Source: a phage
Sequence record: PZ445431.1
Strand: one strand, 5' to 3'
Length of the DNA: 64,000 nt
Made by a program: the position numbers and the translations under genes. The notes below the pieces were generated by a model. The model saw only the letters and a list, made by a program, of their open reading frames with translations, made no database searches and had not been told where the DNA came from. Positions 25,927 to 64,000 of this stretch are shown here, piece by piece. The number at the start of each line of letters is the position of its first letter. Positions within the stretch are counted from its first letter, which is position 1.

Positions 25927-26000
25927 ACATCCATAGCTCAATTGGTTAGAGCTACCGCCTCTTAAGCGGTAGGTTCTAGGTTCAAGTCCTTCATTGGAGA
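25927..26000 (+). tRNA. tRNA-Lys-like (anticodon CUU); acceptor/T stems imperfect
   Basis: Canonical D-arm GCTCAATTGGTTAGAGC and anticodon arm ACCGC-CTCTTAA-GCGGT; acceptor pairing poor by eye. Confidence 0.4.
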
Positions 26001-49979: not shown

Positions 49980-50580
49980 TGTCGGATTTGCACATTACAT
50001 TTCTAGAAATTTATGGTCGGATTTGCACATTGATAGGAGTCTCCAAAGTTTTTAGGAACACTGAAAATAGCAGCATTATTTCGGGCCGAAGGCCCATATT
50101 TGCCTGAGTTTTTAGAGCCACAGGAATTTTCACTTGTCAAGCGATTTTGCCCCATTTTGCTAATAAAATTTCGCTTTATCTCCCCTAATCTCAATTCTAG
50201 CCAAAACATCCCGCATTATCCTCAAAAATGCAGCAAACCGGTGCTAAAGCACCATCACCGCTGCTCCTTCCGTAGTTCCTCCCAAAATCTCATCGGATTC
50301 GCACTTCTCCCCAAACTCACACAATCACACACCCTCTCATCGAAGTCACAAAAATCTTGTCGGATTTGCACACCTTAACACTTGTCGGATTTGCACATAC
50401 TCTAGTAAACCCAGCTGGATTGCATCGCAGTTGCGGATTGCTGGAGTTTTTAGGAAAATTCATTGTCGGATTTGCACACTATAAAAATTTTTCGGGTAGG
50501 ATTTGCACATTACCAAAAATTGTCGGATTCGCACATACACGCCAGCACGTAACCCATGGAGCAAATGTCGGATTTGCACA
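49980..50580. repeat. iteron array: about 9 direct copies of TGTCGGATTTGCACA (minor variants)
   Basis: Copies at about 49980, 50016, 50291, 50359, 50383, 50464, 50496, 50521, 50566, all same orientation, irregular spacing. Confidence 0.9.
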
Positions 50581-50599
50581 AAAGCGCAGGGCAATTTGC

Positions 50600-50755
50600 C
50601 CTGCCTGCCGAAATGCGAATGATAATGAGAATGATTCGCATTTGAGAAGTTGAATGCGAATGAGAACAGTTATCATTTGACTACCGGAATACGAATGAGA
50701 ATGATTTGCATTTAGGAAGGGAAACGCTAATAATAATGAGAATGACTCGCATTTA
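50600..50755. repeat. second iteron family AATGAGAATGA(T/C)T(C/T)GCATTT (3 full copies plus partial), each embedding short AATGCGAAT/ATTCGCATT inverted motifs
   Basis: Copies at about 50621, 50693, 50733 plus GCGAATGAGAACAG at 50664. Confidence 0.85.
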
Positions 50756-50786
50756 CAAAGCGAAGTGAGAAACACTGTTATTTAAG

Positions 50787-50856
50787 TTATCCACAGGTTT
50801 ATTAACAGCACGATCTGACTTGACAAAATCCTAGTGATTTTGAGGCGTTATCCACA
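50787..50856 (+). promoter_or_regulatory. two perfect DnaA boxes (TTATCCACA) in direct orientation
   Basis: TTATCCACA at 50787-50795 and 50848-50856. Confidence 0.8.
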
Positions 50857-51366: not shown

Positions 51367-51579
51367 TCACGGTTTTAAATTCTCTATAGTTAATTTTGCG
51401 CGAATAGTGATTCCATATAATTCGCCTCCCTTGTTTCTTACATCAGGTAGCCAGTCCCACAATTCATGGTATCCGCTTAAAATTCCTAGCGATGCAAGAT
51501 TAGCAATAAAACCGGCTATAGTAACCGCTTCCAGTGAAATAGTTACACGATTATTAATAACTAAAGTAAACTTTTTCAT
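51367..51579 (-). CDS. hypothetical protein (70 aa)
   Basis: ATGA-coupled to upstream gene. Confidence 0.5.
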   Translation of the reverse strand: MKKFTLVINNRVTISLEAVTIAGFIANLASLGILSGYHELWDWLPDVRNKGGELYGITIRAKLTIENLKP

Positions 51580-51920
51580 TGCGCCACCTTTCGAAACGCT
51601 GTTTCGATACTTTCAGCGGTTGATTGAATATACGCGCCTTTCATAATTAGACGCTCCGTACATACTTTGCGGAAAATGAAAATGAATTCATTTTCATTTT
51701 CCGCTATTAACGCTTCCCCCATAACCTGAACGTCACAAGACCCAAAAGTTAAAAATTGAAACGCTAGTTCACGGGCGACAACGGCAGAAATTTTATAATG
51801 TGCTTTGCCCTCATAGATATTAACCACGCCTTTATAAACAGGGGAAAGCTGATTTAAATAGTTTGCTAATAATGCCGGACGGCAATTAGTTACAAAGCGA
51901 TTGCCCTCATAAATAACCAT
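51576..51920 (-). CDS. hypothetical protein (114 aa)
   Basis: ORF in leftward gene string. Confidence 0.55.
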   Translation of the reverse strand: MVIYEGNRFVTNCRPALLANYLNQLSPVYKGVVNIYEGKAHYKISAVVARELAFQFLTFGSCDVQVMGEALIAENENEFIFIFRKVCTERLIMKGAYIQSTAESIETAFRKVAQ

Positions 51921-52026: not shown

Positions 52027-52239
52027 TTATAACACCCCACGAAAAGCAGCGTAAAAAGTAGCAAAGTGTTTAACCGTTTCGGCTATCAAATTGCCGCGCT
52101 TGTCAAATTTCTTTTCTGTAACACGGAAAGCGTTTTTGTTGCGTGCTACATATTCTATTTTACAATCTGGACGCTCGAAGGTGTTAACATCCACCAGCTT
52201 AAAACCTTTAGAACGGGCAAGGGAAACATTTTTTAACAT
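52027..52239 (-). CDS. hypothetical basic protein (70 aa)
   Basis: ORF in leftward gene string. Confidence 0.5.
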   Translation of the reverse strand: MLKNVSLARSKGFKLVDVNTFERPDCKIEYVARNKNAFRVTEKKFDKRGNLIAETVKHFATFYAAFRGVL

Positions 52240-52665: not shown

Positions 52666-52772
52666 TTTAACGCCTCCTAGAAATCAGGGAAAATTTTCAA
52701 TCCACCGTTTCGGTGTAAAGGCATTATAACAAAAAAGGCCACCATAATAGGCGACCTTTACAAAACTTTACA

Positions 52773-53294
52773 TTAGACTATTTCTAATGCTTCCACACCG
52801 AAACAGCGTTTTAGTTCTTTCTGTAAAACTGCATATTCATCCCAACGGGAATTATCAGGAATATAAACAAGCTGTTTTAATCGATTTGCATATAATAACG
52901 CCTTGTTACCAATTATTTCCGCGCCACCGTGTTTAATAATTAGTTTCATAACGGTATTAATAGGATCGCCGCCATTTACATAAGTACCGGACTTACTCAA
53001 TTGATAATGATAAATACTCGCATATACATTATCATTTTCAATCCATTCCCCTGTTTCTTCATCTTCTTCCCCATCGCTACCGAAACGAGAAGCATTATCA
53101 TATGCGTGTTCGTTTGCGAAAGCGTCCAGATCACAGCCAGCGGGAACAAAATGTTCCTCCGTCCAGCCCTCCCCGCAATAGCCAGTATGACAATCAACTA
53201 AAACGATCATATCGTGCTTAGCTTCATTCACACTTTCTAGTGAAAATCCATACTTGCAAACACTATCACGCTCAATAATTAATTTACTAAACAT
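52773..53294 (-). CDS. hypothetical acidic protein (173 aa)
   Basis: Cys/His cluster (CHTGYCGEGW...GC) followed by strongly acidic tract GSDGEEDEETGEWIEND. Confidence 0.6.
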   Translation of the reverse strand: MFSKLIIERDSVCKYGFSLESVNEAKHDMIVLVDCHTGYCGEGWTEEHFVPAGCDLDAFANEHAYDNASRFGSDGEEDEETGEWIENDNVYASIYHYQLSKSGTYVNGGDPINTVMKLIIKHGGAEIIGNKALLYANRLKQLVYIPDNSRWDEYAVLQKELKRCFGVEALEIV

Positions 53295-53347
53295 AATTAG
53301 TCTCCTAACTAAAAGGGAAAGCGGGGATTATTCCCCACTAGTAATTA

Positions 53348-54343
53348 TTATTCACTTTCGGTGTTAGTGGTAAAGGTAGAAATGTCAATACCTTTTACCA
53401 TTTCGTCGATCATTTCAGCAATATTGAAACTCTGTACCATTTCCAACATTGCCGCTTCCATTGCCGCGCCTGCTACCGCTTTCGCTTTCTGATTAGTCGG
53501 GGCGTACTGGTCAACTGCTACGCTTAACAGGTTAGCGATCACTATACGACCAATCGGCGTATCGATATAACCTTTAATCATAAACGGCGCTTTTTTCGCC
53601 GCTACTTTCGTGATTTGAGTTAATGCAATTTTACCCGCTTCCAGTTTTGCAGCATTTACAACAGCGGATTTATTAGCAGCAACGATAGAAGATACTTTAG
53701 TCATGATATTTCCTTTATTTTCAGTAGTTTGCGCATTTGCGCTTGAAGTTTGAGAGTTTACAGCCTGTTTTGCTACGTTGTCAACTGGTTTTAGTGTAAA
53801 TCCAGCGTTTGCAACGTTTGATTCATTCCCATACTCTAAATAATCGTTAGGGATCAACATGTTACCGCTAGCGCGTTCAAAACACAATACGCCAGTTGTT
53901 TCGATTGCGTCACTATCCGCACGTTTAATGGCGCTTGTCAATTCGCCCCAAATGCTAGACAGTAAATCTTCTACATCTCTGGAATTAATACCATTTACGC
54001 GAGTAGCGAAAACCATTTCTTTTTCTTGTACATTGTAACCACGGGCAATATAGCTTTTTTCGTCGTGACCTACAATGATAAAATCAATATCGCTTCCCCG
54101 CTGATTTCGTATGATGTGATAGTCACGGTTGTAAAGCACTAGAACGCGGCTAGGGTCTAGTAATAGCGTGAAATCATCGACTGAATAATGAGTATCATTA
54201 TTATCTAAAATATCATCGTGAATCTTTTCAACCATTGCCACCGTATGTTGTAGGCTTGCTGGACTTGATCCGTCTAGCAGGTTGCGCAAAATACCCTTAA
54301 TAATAGTGGCGTTTGCTGGTACTGCAATTCTTACAGTAGACAT
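53348..54343 (-). CDS. hypothetical protein (331 aa), first gene of leftward pre-early operon
   Basis: Longest ORF of the block; GGAGAC RBS; Ala/Lys-rich C-terminal half. Confidence 0.6.
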   Translation of the reverse strand: MSTVRIAVPANATIIKGILRNLLDGSSPASLQHTVAMVEKIHDDILDNNDTHYSVDDFTLLLDPSRVLVLYNRDYHIIRNQRGSDIDFIIVGHDEKSYIARGYNVQEKEMVFATRVNGINSRDVEDLLSSIWGELTSAIKRADSDAIETTGVLCFERASGNMLIPNDYLEYGNESNVANAGFTLKPVDNVAKQAVNSQTSSANAQTTENKGNIMTKVSSIVAANKSAVVNAAKLEAGKIALTQITKVAAKKAPFMIKGYIDTPIGRIVIANLLSVAVDQYAPTNQKAKAVAGAAMEAAMLEMVQSFNIAEMIDEMVKGIDISTFTTNTESE

Positions 54344-63518: not shown

Positions 63519-64000
63519 ATGGCAAATGATGTATTAGTTCCCGATCTCATGTCTCCCGAAGGCATGGATGTTATTGAAGCCTATTTACAGTGCGGTAGTG
63601 ATGTTCCTGCCGCCGCTCGTAGTCTTGGAATGTCCGAGATTGCATTCCGTGATATAATGAATCGTGGGGAAGTTAAAAACTATCTCAACGATATCTTTAT
63701 GGAAAGTGGCTTCCGTAATCGTGACCGCTTATTCGGAGTTCTTGACGAAGTTATCAAGCGTAAGCTGGAAGAACTTGAAGAAACTGGCATGGGTTCTGAC
63801 CAGGATATCATGGATATTCTCTGGAAGGCGCACAAGATGAAGATGGAAGAAATGAAAATGATGGTAGAACTGGAGAAAGTGAAGGCAGCAGCCCGTACTC
63901 CGGCTAACCAGACTAATATTCAGAATAATATTATTGCTGGAAGTGGTGACGAAAACTATATGAATCTTATTACCGCTCTAGCAGGAGGAGGTAAGAGATA
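63519..64000 (+). CDS. putative terminase small subunit-like protein, partial (3' end beyond window)
   Basis: AGGAGGA RBS; N-terminal helix-turn-helix-like segment ([21 protein letters not shown]) and charged coiled-coil region. Confidence 0.4.

What the first reader, a model, noticed from the sequence alone, without database searches (positions are those of the whole stretch)
52773..53294. Acidic protein with Cys/His cluster: DNA-mimic or anti-restriction candidate
This 173 aa protein has an N-terminal CHTGYCGEGW...GC metal-site-like cluster followed by a strongly acidic tract (GSDGEEDEETGEWIEND). Acidic DNA-mimic proteins (Ocr/ArdA class) are classic early anti-restriction factors; the position in the pre-early block fits.
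Basis: inference. Interest (0 to 1): 0.5.

Follow-up and report, generated by a model that had tools for sequence, protein, structure and literature searches.

The report
Orphan acidic pre-early phage protein
This is a real, conserved early gene of T5-like phages that encodes a strongly acidic protein with no solved structural relative; it could be a decoy that blocks a host DNA-binding protein, but nothing links it to known anti-restriction families and its function remains untested.

The parts
52773..53294 (-). CDS bas30_0188, 173 aa, acidic pre-early protein (PHROG 6741)
   Evidence: ORF list and sequence; 100% identical to the annotated CDS of TrudiRoth; PHROG 6741 at E 1.3e-86; dN/dS 0.03-0.18
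53302..53306 (-). Ribosome-binding site AGGAG, 7 nt upstream of the ATG
   Evidence: Read directly from the sequence
52962..53255 (-). N-terminal acidic domain (residues 14-111; core beta-beta-alpha-loop-beta at residues 29-97), net charge about -17; homologous to stand-alone ~100-aa phage proteins
   Evidence: AF2 secondary structure. Mini-domain proteins match PHROG 6741 positions 22-102. An HMM built from the minis alone finds the target at E 7e-6. The mini model has pLDDT 93 and the same order of elements.
53172..53186 (-). TGYCG signature turn (residues 37-41) between the first two long strands; T37, G38 and G41 are near-invariant across the family, and C40 is the only conserved Cys
   Evidence: Alignments A1, A2 and A4
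53028..53081 (-). Acidic hairpin loop GSDGEEDEETGEWIENDN (residues 72-89); this is where relatives carry a CPxC...CxxC zinc-ribbon insertion, absent in this allele
   Evidence: Loop net charge is -6 to -12 in all 28 representatives, and 15 of 28 have at least 4 Cys here; alignments; modelled as strands 75-77 and 84-86
52776..52961 (-). C-terminal alpha/beta domain (residues 112-173, net charge about +2), with the conserved RLKQLVYIP motif; recombines independently of the N-domain
   Evidence: AF2 model. P0012 is a mosaic: Zn-ribbon-type N-half joined to a TrudiRoth-type C-half. Distant relatives carry other C-terminal extensions or none.
53320..53339 (-). Weak hairpin with interrupted T-run between the 011 stop codon and the target's RBS; it belongs to the cassette that T5 lacks
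   Evidence: Terminator-like scan (the number of sites found is no higher than in shuffles); alignment with the T5 spacer
52734..52759 (-). Strong intrinsic terminator just after the target's stop codon, conserved with the annotated T5 terminator that follows gene 011; followed by TGTTATAAT (extended -10) ahead of the 012 homologue
   Evidence: T5 annotation
53348..54343 (-). Upstream gene of the same transcription unit: homologue of T5 011 (DUF7566), which is toxic in T5
   Evidence: Pfam DUF7566 at E 8e-134; 57% identical to T5 011; toxicity reported in bioRxiv 10.64898/2026.04.02.716235 and PMC8201957

Best explanation
bas30_0188 is an accessory pre-early (first-step-transfer) protein of T5-like phages. 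It is made in the first minutes of infection as the second gene of the 011 transcription unit. It has two domains. The N-terminal domain (order: beta, TGYCG turn, beta, alpha, acidic hairpin, beta) is strongly and conservedly negative and also exists as a stand-alone ~100-aa protein in other large virulent phages. The C-terminal alpha/beta domain is near neutral. I infer that the N-domain acts stoichiometrically as a polyanionic decoy, a nucleic-acid-mimic-like surface that binds and blocks the DNA- or RNA-binding site of a host protein such as a nuclease, a defence sensor or a nucleoid protein. I infer that the C-domain provides oligomerisation or a second contact. Shown here: the gene is real and constrained, its timing class follows from its position, the charge is conserved, the domain is modular, and there is no relationship to known families. 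Inferred: decoy binding, the identity of the target, and any anti-defence effect.
For: The gene is real and constrained: RBS and ORF and dN/dS 0.03-0.18. It lies in the pre-early block in every lineage examined, in the order DUF7566/011, family gene, PF26847/015, next to A2 and A1. It sits between the 011 stop codon and the conserved terminator, so it is co-transcribed with 011. Net negative charge is conserved although the acidic positions are not: pI 4.05-4.80 in 28 of 28 representatives, N-half net -11 to -19, loop net -6 to -12. Stand-alone N-domain proteins carry net -0.15 to -0.29 per residue. The domain folds autonomously (pLDDT 93) and has the same element order as target residues 29-97. 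The gene behaves as an accessory, swappable element. It is absent from T5 by a clean indel. In L023 the neighbours are 95-98% identical but the target only 48%. P0012 is a mosaic allele. Near-invariant residues (T37, G38, G41, A64, A68) look structural rather than catalytic.
Against: There is no experimental or homology link to any function. No paper mentions the family. Acidity alone is weak evidence: about 10% of this phage's proteins are at least as acidic by pI. The model could not be examined for surface charge geometry or dimerisation. Conserved non-acidic loops (TGYCG, NAxSxG, YQLSxSGxYVNGGDP) could form a ligand or catalytic site instead. The conserved linkage to the phage genes 011 and 015, with overlapping stop and start codons in Sugarland, Eos and L008, could mean that its partner is a phage protein rather than a host protein.
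Confidence: 0.35

Rival explanations
1. Ocr/ArdA-like anti-restriction function: the protein mimics DNA and specifically blocks type I restriction-modification enzymes (and possibly BREX), protecting the first-injected DNA.
For: It is a pre-early gene with conserved acidity. TrudiRoth plates at EOP 0.53-1.67 on EcoKI despite 8 sites, so some protection against type I enzymes exists in this phage.
Against: T5 lacks the gene in its pre-early DNA but is equally insensitive to EcoKI (EOP 0.8-0.93). The Tequintaviruses Bas33 and Bas34 are similarly insensitive, although I did not check those genomes for the gene. Type I insensitivity is therefore at least partly independent of this gene and is more simply explained by shared genes. 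Epseptimaviruses, the genus in which most homologues were found, are the more restriction-sensitive genus (PMC8594841; PMC10644984). There is no sequence or fold relationship to Ocr or ArdA.
Confidence: 0.1
2. Partner or modulator of the neighbouring toxic pre-early proteins: it binds and tempers, targets or chaperones the DUF7566/011 protein (nucleoid disruption) or the 015 Ung-dependent AP-site nickase, for example by shielding their DNA-binding surfaces until needed or by protecting phage DNA.
For: The order 011, family gene, 015 is conserved across deeply diverged Demerecviridae. The gene is co-transcribed with 011 in TrudiRoth. Its stop overlaps the start of the 015-like gene in Sugarland, Eos and L008. 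In T5, 011 and 015 are both toxic and act on the nucleoid or on DNA.
Against: T5 runs 011 and 015 without it. The 011 and target alleles assort independently: in L011, 011 is 58% and the target 93% identical; in L023, 011 is 82% and the target 48%. The stand-alone N-domain occurs in phages with no called DUF7566 or PF26847 gene in the 7-kb flanks examined, next to a calcineurin-like phosphoesterase instead.
Confidence: 0.2
3. A small enzyme or ligand or metal-binding protein whose site is formed by the conserved loops (TGYCG with Cys40, NAxSxG, SxSGxYVNGGDP), with the zinc ribbon of relatives serving nucleic-acid or protein recognition. On this view acidity is incidental.
For: The conserved residues cluster in Gly/Ser/Thr/Cys/Asn/Asp-rich loops. 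TGYCG is invariant in the 24 mini proteins, which also conserve an H..C....HD pattern. Fifteen of 28 relatives carry a four-Cys ribbon.
Against: Cys40 is replaced by P, V, I or Y in several family members, and no column is invariant across the broad alignment. A tandem paralogue has AGLAG in place of TGYCG. The Zn ribbon is dispensable, being absent here and in 13 of 28 representatives. There is no match to any enzyme family or fold.
Confidence: 0.1

Closest known systems
PHROG 6741 / EPS7_0009-like hypothetical proteins of Demerecviridae (e.g. Salmonella phage Shivani A0A0A7TY44, Pectobacterium phage My1_018, Klebsiella phage Sugarland gp012)
   Same: Full-length homologues (E 1e-86 to PHROG 6741; BFVD TM 0.73-0.91) in the same position in the pre-early arm
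   Different: Nothing differs in kind. This allele lacks the zinc-ribbon insertion and has a 9-residue N-terminal extension. None of the family has a known function.
Stand-alone ~100-aa 'HTGYCG' acidic proteins of other large virulent phages (PHROG 1997; borderline Pfam DUF7167, PF23768)
   Same: Homologous to residues ~29-100 of the target, shown reciprocally. They share the beta, TGYCG turn, beta, alpha, acidic loop, beta layout and are very acidic.
   Different: They have no C-terminal domain. They sit in a different neighbourhood, next to a calcineurin-like phosphoesterase, in phages encoding Ro60/TROVE, ClpP and ligases. They conserve an extra KHDGH motif that the target lacks. The target itself does not hit DUF7167.
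Ocr (T7 gp0.3) and ArdA DNA-mimic anti-restriction proteins
   Same: They are small, acidic and expressed first after DNA entry. The charge density of the target's N-domain (-0.17 per residue) is in the range I recall for these mimics (from memory, not computed here).
Other unrelated-fold phage DNA mimics and small inhibitors (Ugi, p56, T4 Arn, T7 gp5.9, T4 Dmd)

Membership tests
Ocr (T7 gp0.3) family | Sequence homology to Ocr (Pfam or PDB chain match) | tested here: not met
   No Pfam family at E <= 1. Profile searches of all PDB sequences returned only noise (best E 0.6) and no Ocr.
Ocr (T7 gp0.3) family | All-helical fold that mimics bent B-DNA | tested here: not met
Ocr/ArdA functional class (DNA mimic) | Very high surface density of carboxylates arranged like DNA phosphates, usually on a dimer | tested here: inconclusive
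   Net charge per residue is -0.087 for the whole protein, -0.17 for the N-half and -0.15 to -0.29 for the minis.
Ocr/ArdA functional class (DNA mimic) | Inhibits type I restriction-modification in vivo or in vitro | not testable with these tools
   Only indirect data exist. TrudiRoth (with the gene) and T5 (without it) both plate at EOP of about 1 on EcoKI.
ArdA family | Sequence or fold homology to ArdA (three-domain elongated dimer) | tested here: not met
Zinc-ribbon proteins | Two CxxC knuckles (four Cys) on a beta-hairpin pair | tested here: not met
   The TrudiRoth loop has 0 Cys, whereas 15 of 28 family representatives have 4-5 Cys as CPxC...CxxC at the same position. This allele is a ribbon-less variant.
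   Only C40 is conserved; C35, H36, H48 and C54 vary.
PHROG 6741 | Full-length profile match | tested here: met
   E 1.3e-86, residues 13-173 against profile positions 4-164 of 164.
Pfam DUF7167 (PF23768) | Score at or above the gathering threshold of 24.4 bits | tested here: not met
   The target has no hit. Four of 25 N-domain relatives hit, the best at 24.3 bits, just below the cut-off. The relationship is distant at most.
T5-type pre-early (FST) gene set | Located in the terminal-repeat FST DNA, between the injection stop signal and dmp/A1/A2 | tested here: met
   Synteny with the annotated S114 and T5 FST regions. The neighbours are orthologues of T5 011-017.

The most novel reading that the evidence does not exclude
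The TGYCG acidic module would be a previously unrecognised fold class of nucleic-acid-mimic counter-defence domain. It would be spread among large virulent phages as a stand-alone protein, as a fusion to different C-terminal domains, and with or without a zinc ribbon. In Epseptimaviruses it would neutralise a host DNA-targeting defence or repair factor (for example type I RM or BREX, RecBCD, Ung or a nucleoid protein) during the vulnerable first-step-transfer pause.
Probability: 0.25. Interest if true: 0.65.

Novelty: new member of a known kind. Interest (0 to 1): 0.33.

Why it matters
Most of the roughly 17 pre-early genes of T5-like phages have no known function, and the genes behind their restriction and nuclease insensitivity have been sought since the 1970s. 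This gene cannot by itself account for that insensitivity, because T5 lacks it. It is nevertheless a well-defined, swappable accessory cassette with a conserved polyanionic domain that also circulates in unrelated large phages. That makes it a sensible candidate for counter-defence screens. If it is a decoy, it would add a new fold to the DNA-mimic repertoire. The analysis also clarifies the layout of the right-hand pre-early operon and flags a shifted RefSeq product label on the Ung-dependent nickase.

Tried and rejected
- Pfam scan of the target found nothing at E <= 1.
- Profile searches of PDB sequences with the family and with the N-domain found nothing meaningful.
- Foldseek against the PDB gave a best E of 0.39.
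- BFVD returned only uncharacterised Demerecviridae proteins.
- The search for related loci failed with the broad alignment because no stretch was conserved enough. With the close alignment it returned only Epseptimavirus-type loci.
- Literature searches for the locus tag, EPS7_0009, the PHROG or DUF identifiers, T5-like anti-defence and zinc-bearing DNA mimics found nothing on this family.
- I considered that the gene might be the T5.015-like nickase flagged in RefSeq. That label belongs to a neighbouring gene, and is itself shifted by one gene.
- I considered tight co-evolution with 011. It was rejected because the alleles assort independently.
- I considered that the ~170-aa gene downstream of the minis might be a split-off C-terminal domain. 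It was rejected: it is a calcineurin-like phosphoesterase with no similarity to the target.
- I looked for a second copy in TrudiRoth or a cryptic copy in the T5 FST region. There is none.
- The local Pfam copy lacks PF26847, so that assignment was checked by BLAST instead.

Full report
IDENTITY OF THE WINDOW AND THE ORF

The window is Escherichia phage TrudiRoth (Bas30; Demerecviridae, Markadamsvirinae, Epseptimavirus), matched at 100% identity. It wraps around the origin of the circularly permuted record. The finding corresponds to CDS bas30_0188, annotated only as a hypothetical protein.

An AGGAG sits 7 nt upstream of the ATG. Pairwise dN/dS between TrudiRoth and ten other Epseptimavirus alleles is 0.03-0.18, in both halves of the protein. 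This is a real gene under selection.

THE OBSERVATION

The protein has pI 4.66 and net charge -15. All of the negative charge lies in residues 1-100 (-17), and the C-terminal half is about +2. In a proxy proteome of 151 non-overlapping ORFs from this phage, 16 have an equal or lower pI, 11 have an equal or lower charge per residue, and 5 have a 100-aa stretch at least as acidic. The protein is clearly acidic but not an extreme outlier.

What makes the acidity meaningful is its conservation. All 28 representatives of the family have pI 4.05-4.80. Their N-halves carry net -11 to -19 and the loop equivalent to GSDGEEDEETGEWIEND carries net -6 to -12. The individual acidic positions, however, are not conserved.

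The metal-site part of the observation does not hold. Among close homologues only C40 is invariant. C35 is replaced by S, L, M, V or A, and H36, H48 and C54 all vary. In the broad alignment only T37, G38, G41, A64 and A68 are near-invariant. TGYCG is a signature turn, not a Cys/His cluster.

The acidic tract is a variable hairpin loop. In 15 of 28 representatives it carries a CPxC...CxxC insertion of four to five Cys. By established knowledge of CPxCG knuckles this is a zinc ribbon. The TrudiRoth allele has none.

STRUCTURE AND HOMOLOGY

There is no Pfam family at E <= 1. PHROG 6741, of unknown function, matches at 1.3e-86. An exhaustive HMMER profile search of 1.84 billion representative proteins found only 30 clusters.

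AlphaFold2 gives a confident model (pLDDT 84.8, pTM 0.80) with two parts. The N-terminal part runs beta (29-36), TGYCG turn, beta (44-50), alpha (56-70), acidic hairpin (75-77 and 84-86), beta (91-97). A C-terminal alpha/beta domain follows (112-172).

A PORTABLE ACIDIC DOMAIN

Searching with the diverse family profile recovered 24 proteins of 86-110 aa that match only the N-terminal domain. They share the following layout:
- an 'hhhLHTGYCG' motif,
- a helix 'AWExAxxNAEMYG',
- an acidic loop,
- 'IEG...Y'.

They hit PHROG 6741 positions 22-102 reciprocally. An HMM built from these minis alone finds the target at E 7e-6 among 2147 six-frame ORFs. They are extremely acidic, at net -0.15 to -0.29 per residue and pI 4.05-4.35. 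One of them folds on its own with pLDDT 93.2 and the same order of elements as target residues 29-97.

Four of 25 touch Pfam DUF7167, the best at 24.3 bits, just below its 24.4-bit threshold, and the target itself does not. These minis lie in early-gene arrays of other large virulent phages that encode Ro60/TROVE, ClpP, RNA or DNA ligase and weak A2-like proteins. They sit directly upstream of, and often overlap, a ~170-aa calcineurin-like phosphoesterase. One contig has two tandem paralogues, one of them with AGLAG in place of TGYCG.

Other family members fuse the same N-domain to longer, different C-terminal regions (P0037, and the P0042 and P0049-P0056 group). The conserved functional unit is therefore the acidic N-domain.

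GENOMIC SETTING

All neighbours of the target have T5 orthologues: 011 at 57% identity, 012 at 69%, 013 at 62%, 014 at 94%, 015 at 89% and 017 at 80%. The target has none in the T5 FST DNA, by tblastn or by HMM.

Aligning the flanks shows that the T5 011-012 spacer equals the end of TrudiRoth 011 joined exactly to the sequence that begins at the target's stop codon. The gene is thus a clean cassette made of a weak hairpin (53339-53320), an RBS and the ORF. It lies between the 011 stop codon and the conserved strong terminator (52759-52734, annotated in T5). That terminator is followed by an extended -10 element ahead of 012. In TrudiRoth the target is therefore the second gene of the 011 transcription unit.

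The same order recurs in six further, deeply diverged contexts: Sugarland, Eos and four metagenomic or genomic contigs. The order is DUF7566 (011), then 0-1 small gene, then the family gene, then 0-3 small genes, then the PF26847 (015) nickase. A2/A1 homologues were present wherever the contig extended far enough (five of the six). In Sugarland and Eos, and in a further short contig (L008) that carries only the family gene and a 015-type gene, the family gene's stop overlaps the start of the 015-type gene. This breadth suggests the gene is ancestral in the family and was lost in the T5 lineage; that direction is an inference.

Within Epseptimaviruses the gene behaves as a swappable allele. L023 is 95-98% identical to TrudiRoth in A1, A2, 012, 014, 015 and 017, but only 48% identical in the target. 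P0012 joins a Zn-ribbon-type N-half to a TrudiRoth-type C-half. The 011 and target alleles assort independently.

BEARING ON ANTI-RESTRICTION

BASEL data for this very phage give the following EOP values:
- EcoKI: 0.53-1.67 (8 sites)
- EcoCFT_I: 0.13-0.71 (4 sites)
- EcoRI: 0.009-0.083 (36 sites)
- EcoRV: 0.004-0.0125 (70 sites)

T5, which lacks the gene in its pre-early DNA, plates at 0.8-0.93 on EcoKI, and the Tequintaviruses Bas33 and Bas34 behave similarly. I did not check the Bas33 and Bas34 genomes for the gene.

The literature states that restriction insensitivity is characteristic of Tequintavirus, not Epseptimavirus (PMC8594841; PMC10644984). Insensitivity to type I enzymes therefore does not track the gene, and phages that carry it are restricted by type II enzymes. 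This does not exclude a redundant Ocr-like activity, but it gives no positive support for one. T5 reverse genetics shows that 13 of its 17 pre-early genes are dispensable in the laboratory, and that 011 and 015 are toxic and act on the nucleoid or on DNA (bioRxiv 10.64898/2026.04.02.716235; PMC8201957).

MOST LIKELY MECHANISM

The protein combines very early expression, accessory and mosaic behaviour, a portable domain whose net charge (rather than specific residues) is conserved, and no catalytic signature. I therefore favour a stoichiometric polyanionic decoy that occupies the nucleic-acid-binding surface of a host protein, with the C-domain providing oligomerisation or a second contact (confidence about 0.35). 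The rivals are:
- a partner or modulator of the adjacent toxic proteins 011 and 015 (0.2);
- a specific type I anti-restriction function (0.1);
- a small enzyme or ligand-binding protein that uses the conserved loops and Cys40 (0.1).
The remaining probability covers functions not foreseen here.

NOVELTY AND VERDICT

The sequence family is already catalogued (PHROG 6741; hundreds of 'hypothetical protein' records) but has never been studied. Its predicted fold has no solved relative. I file it as a new, uncharacterised member of the familiar kind 'small acidic early phage accessory protein'. It is not a member of the Ocr or ArdA families. Interest is moderate (0.33). The domain modularity and conserved charge make it a reasonable target for counter-defence screens, but it cannot by itself account for T5's restriction insensitivity, because T5 lacks it.

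Noticed in passing
window 52027-52239 (-) and 51576-51920 (-): The RefSeq product 'endonuclease nicking abasic sites generated by host uracil glycosylase Ung' is attached to the 70-aa ORF (locus tag T5.014 in NC_005859, and its homologues in S114, 3-29 and faergetype). The experimentally studied gene is T5.015. Proteins flagged by Pfam PF26847 (Phage_T5_AP_Endonuclease) match the 114-aa ORF (T5.015 homologue, window 51576-51920) at about 1e-14 to 1e-16 and do not match the 70-aa ORF. The label appears shifted by one gene.
   Followed up: yes
window ~25934-25990: Relative to the TrudiRoth RefSeq record, the window lacks about 0.92 kb (record 75982-76903: bas30_0112, tRNA-Gly, bas30_0114, bas30_0115). 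The missing segment lies between two identical tRNA-Lys(AAG) genes, as if it had been deleted or collapsed by recombination between the repeats. The window also wraps the record origin (window 63519-64000 = record 1-482).
   Followed up: partly
window 53348-54343 (-): The 011/DUF7566 homologue exists in two allele classes within Epseptimavirus. The TrudiRoth type is 82-93% identical in L001, L020 and L023. A second type is only about 57% identical, as far from TrudiRoth as T5's own 011. The class is independent of the neighbouring genes. T5 011 is toxic and disturbs the nucleoid, and its function is unknown.
   Followed up: partly
L001 4253-4561; L025 4690-4995; L027 4685-4990: Many relatives carry an extra ~101-aa gene (EPS7_0008-like in S114) between 011 and the family gene, which TrudiRoth lacks. 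Sugarland and L026 have a 164-170-aa gene in that slot. The interval between 011 and 012 is a hotspot for accessory pre-early genes. I did not test whether the ~101-aa genes are homologous to one another.
   Followed up: no
L029 7321-7830; L030 4570-5094; L028 7407-8012: In other large virulent phages the stand-alone acidic mini-domain gene is followed by a ~170-200-aa calcineurin-like metallophosphoesterase (DHH, GD, GNHD and GHxH motifs), with overlapping stop and start codons in L029 and L030. This may be a functional pairing. L028 has two tandem mini paralogues.
   Followed up: partly
window ~50350-50800: A non-coding stretch whose six-frame ORFs show a repeated peptide (VGFAH...), meaning reiterated DNA motifs. 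It lies roughly where S114 and T5 annotate the injection stop signal of the first-step-transfer DNA.
   Followed up: no
window 52725-52733 (-), just downstream of the terminator at 52759-52734: TGTTATAAT, a perfect extended -10 element, immediately follows the terminator and precedes the 012 homologue. It is conserved base for base in T5, which suggests that 012-017 form their own transcription unit.
   Followed up: partly
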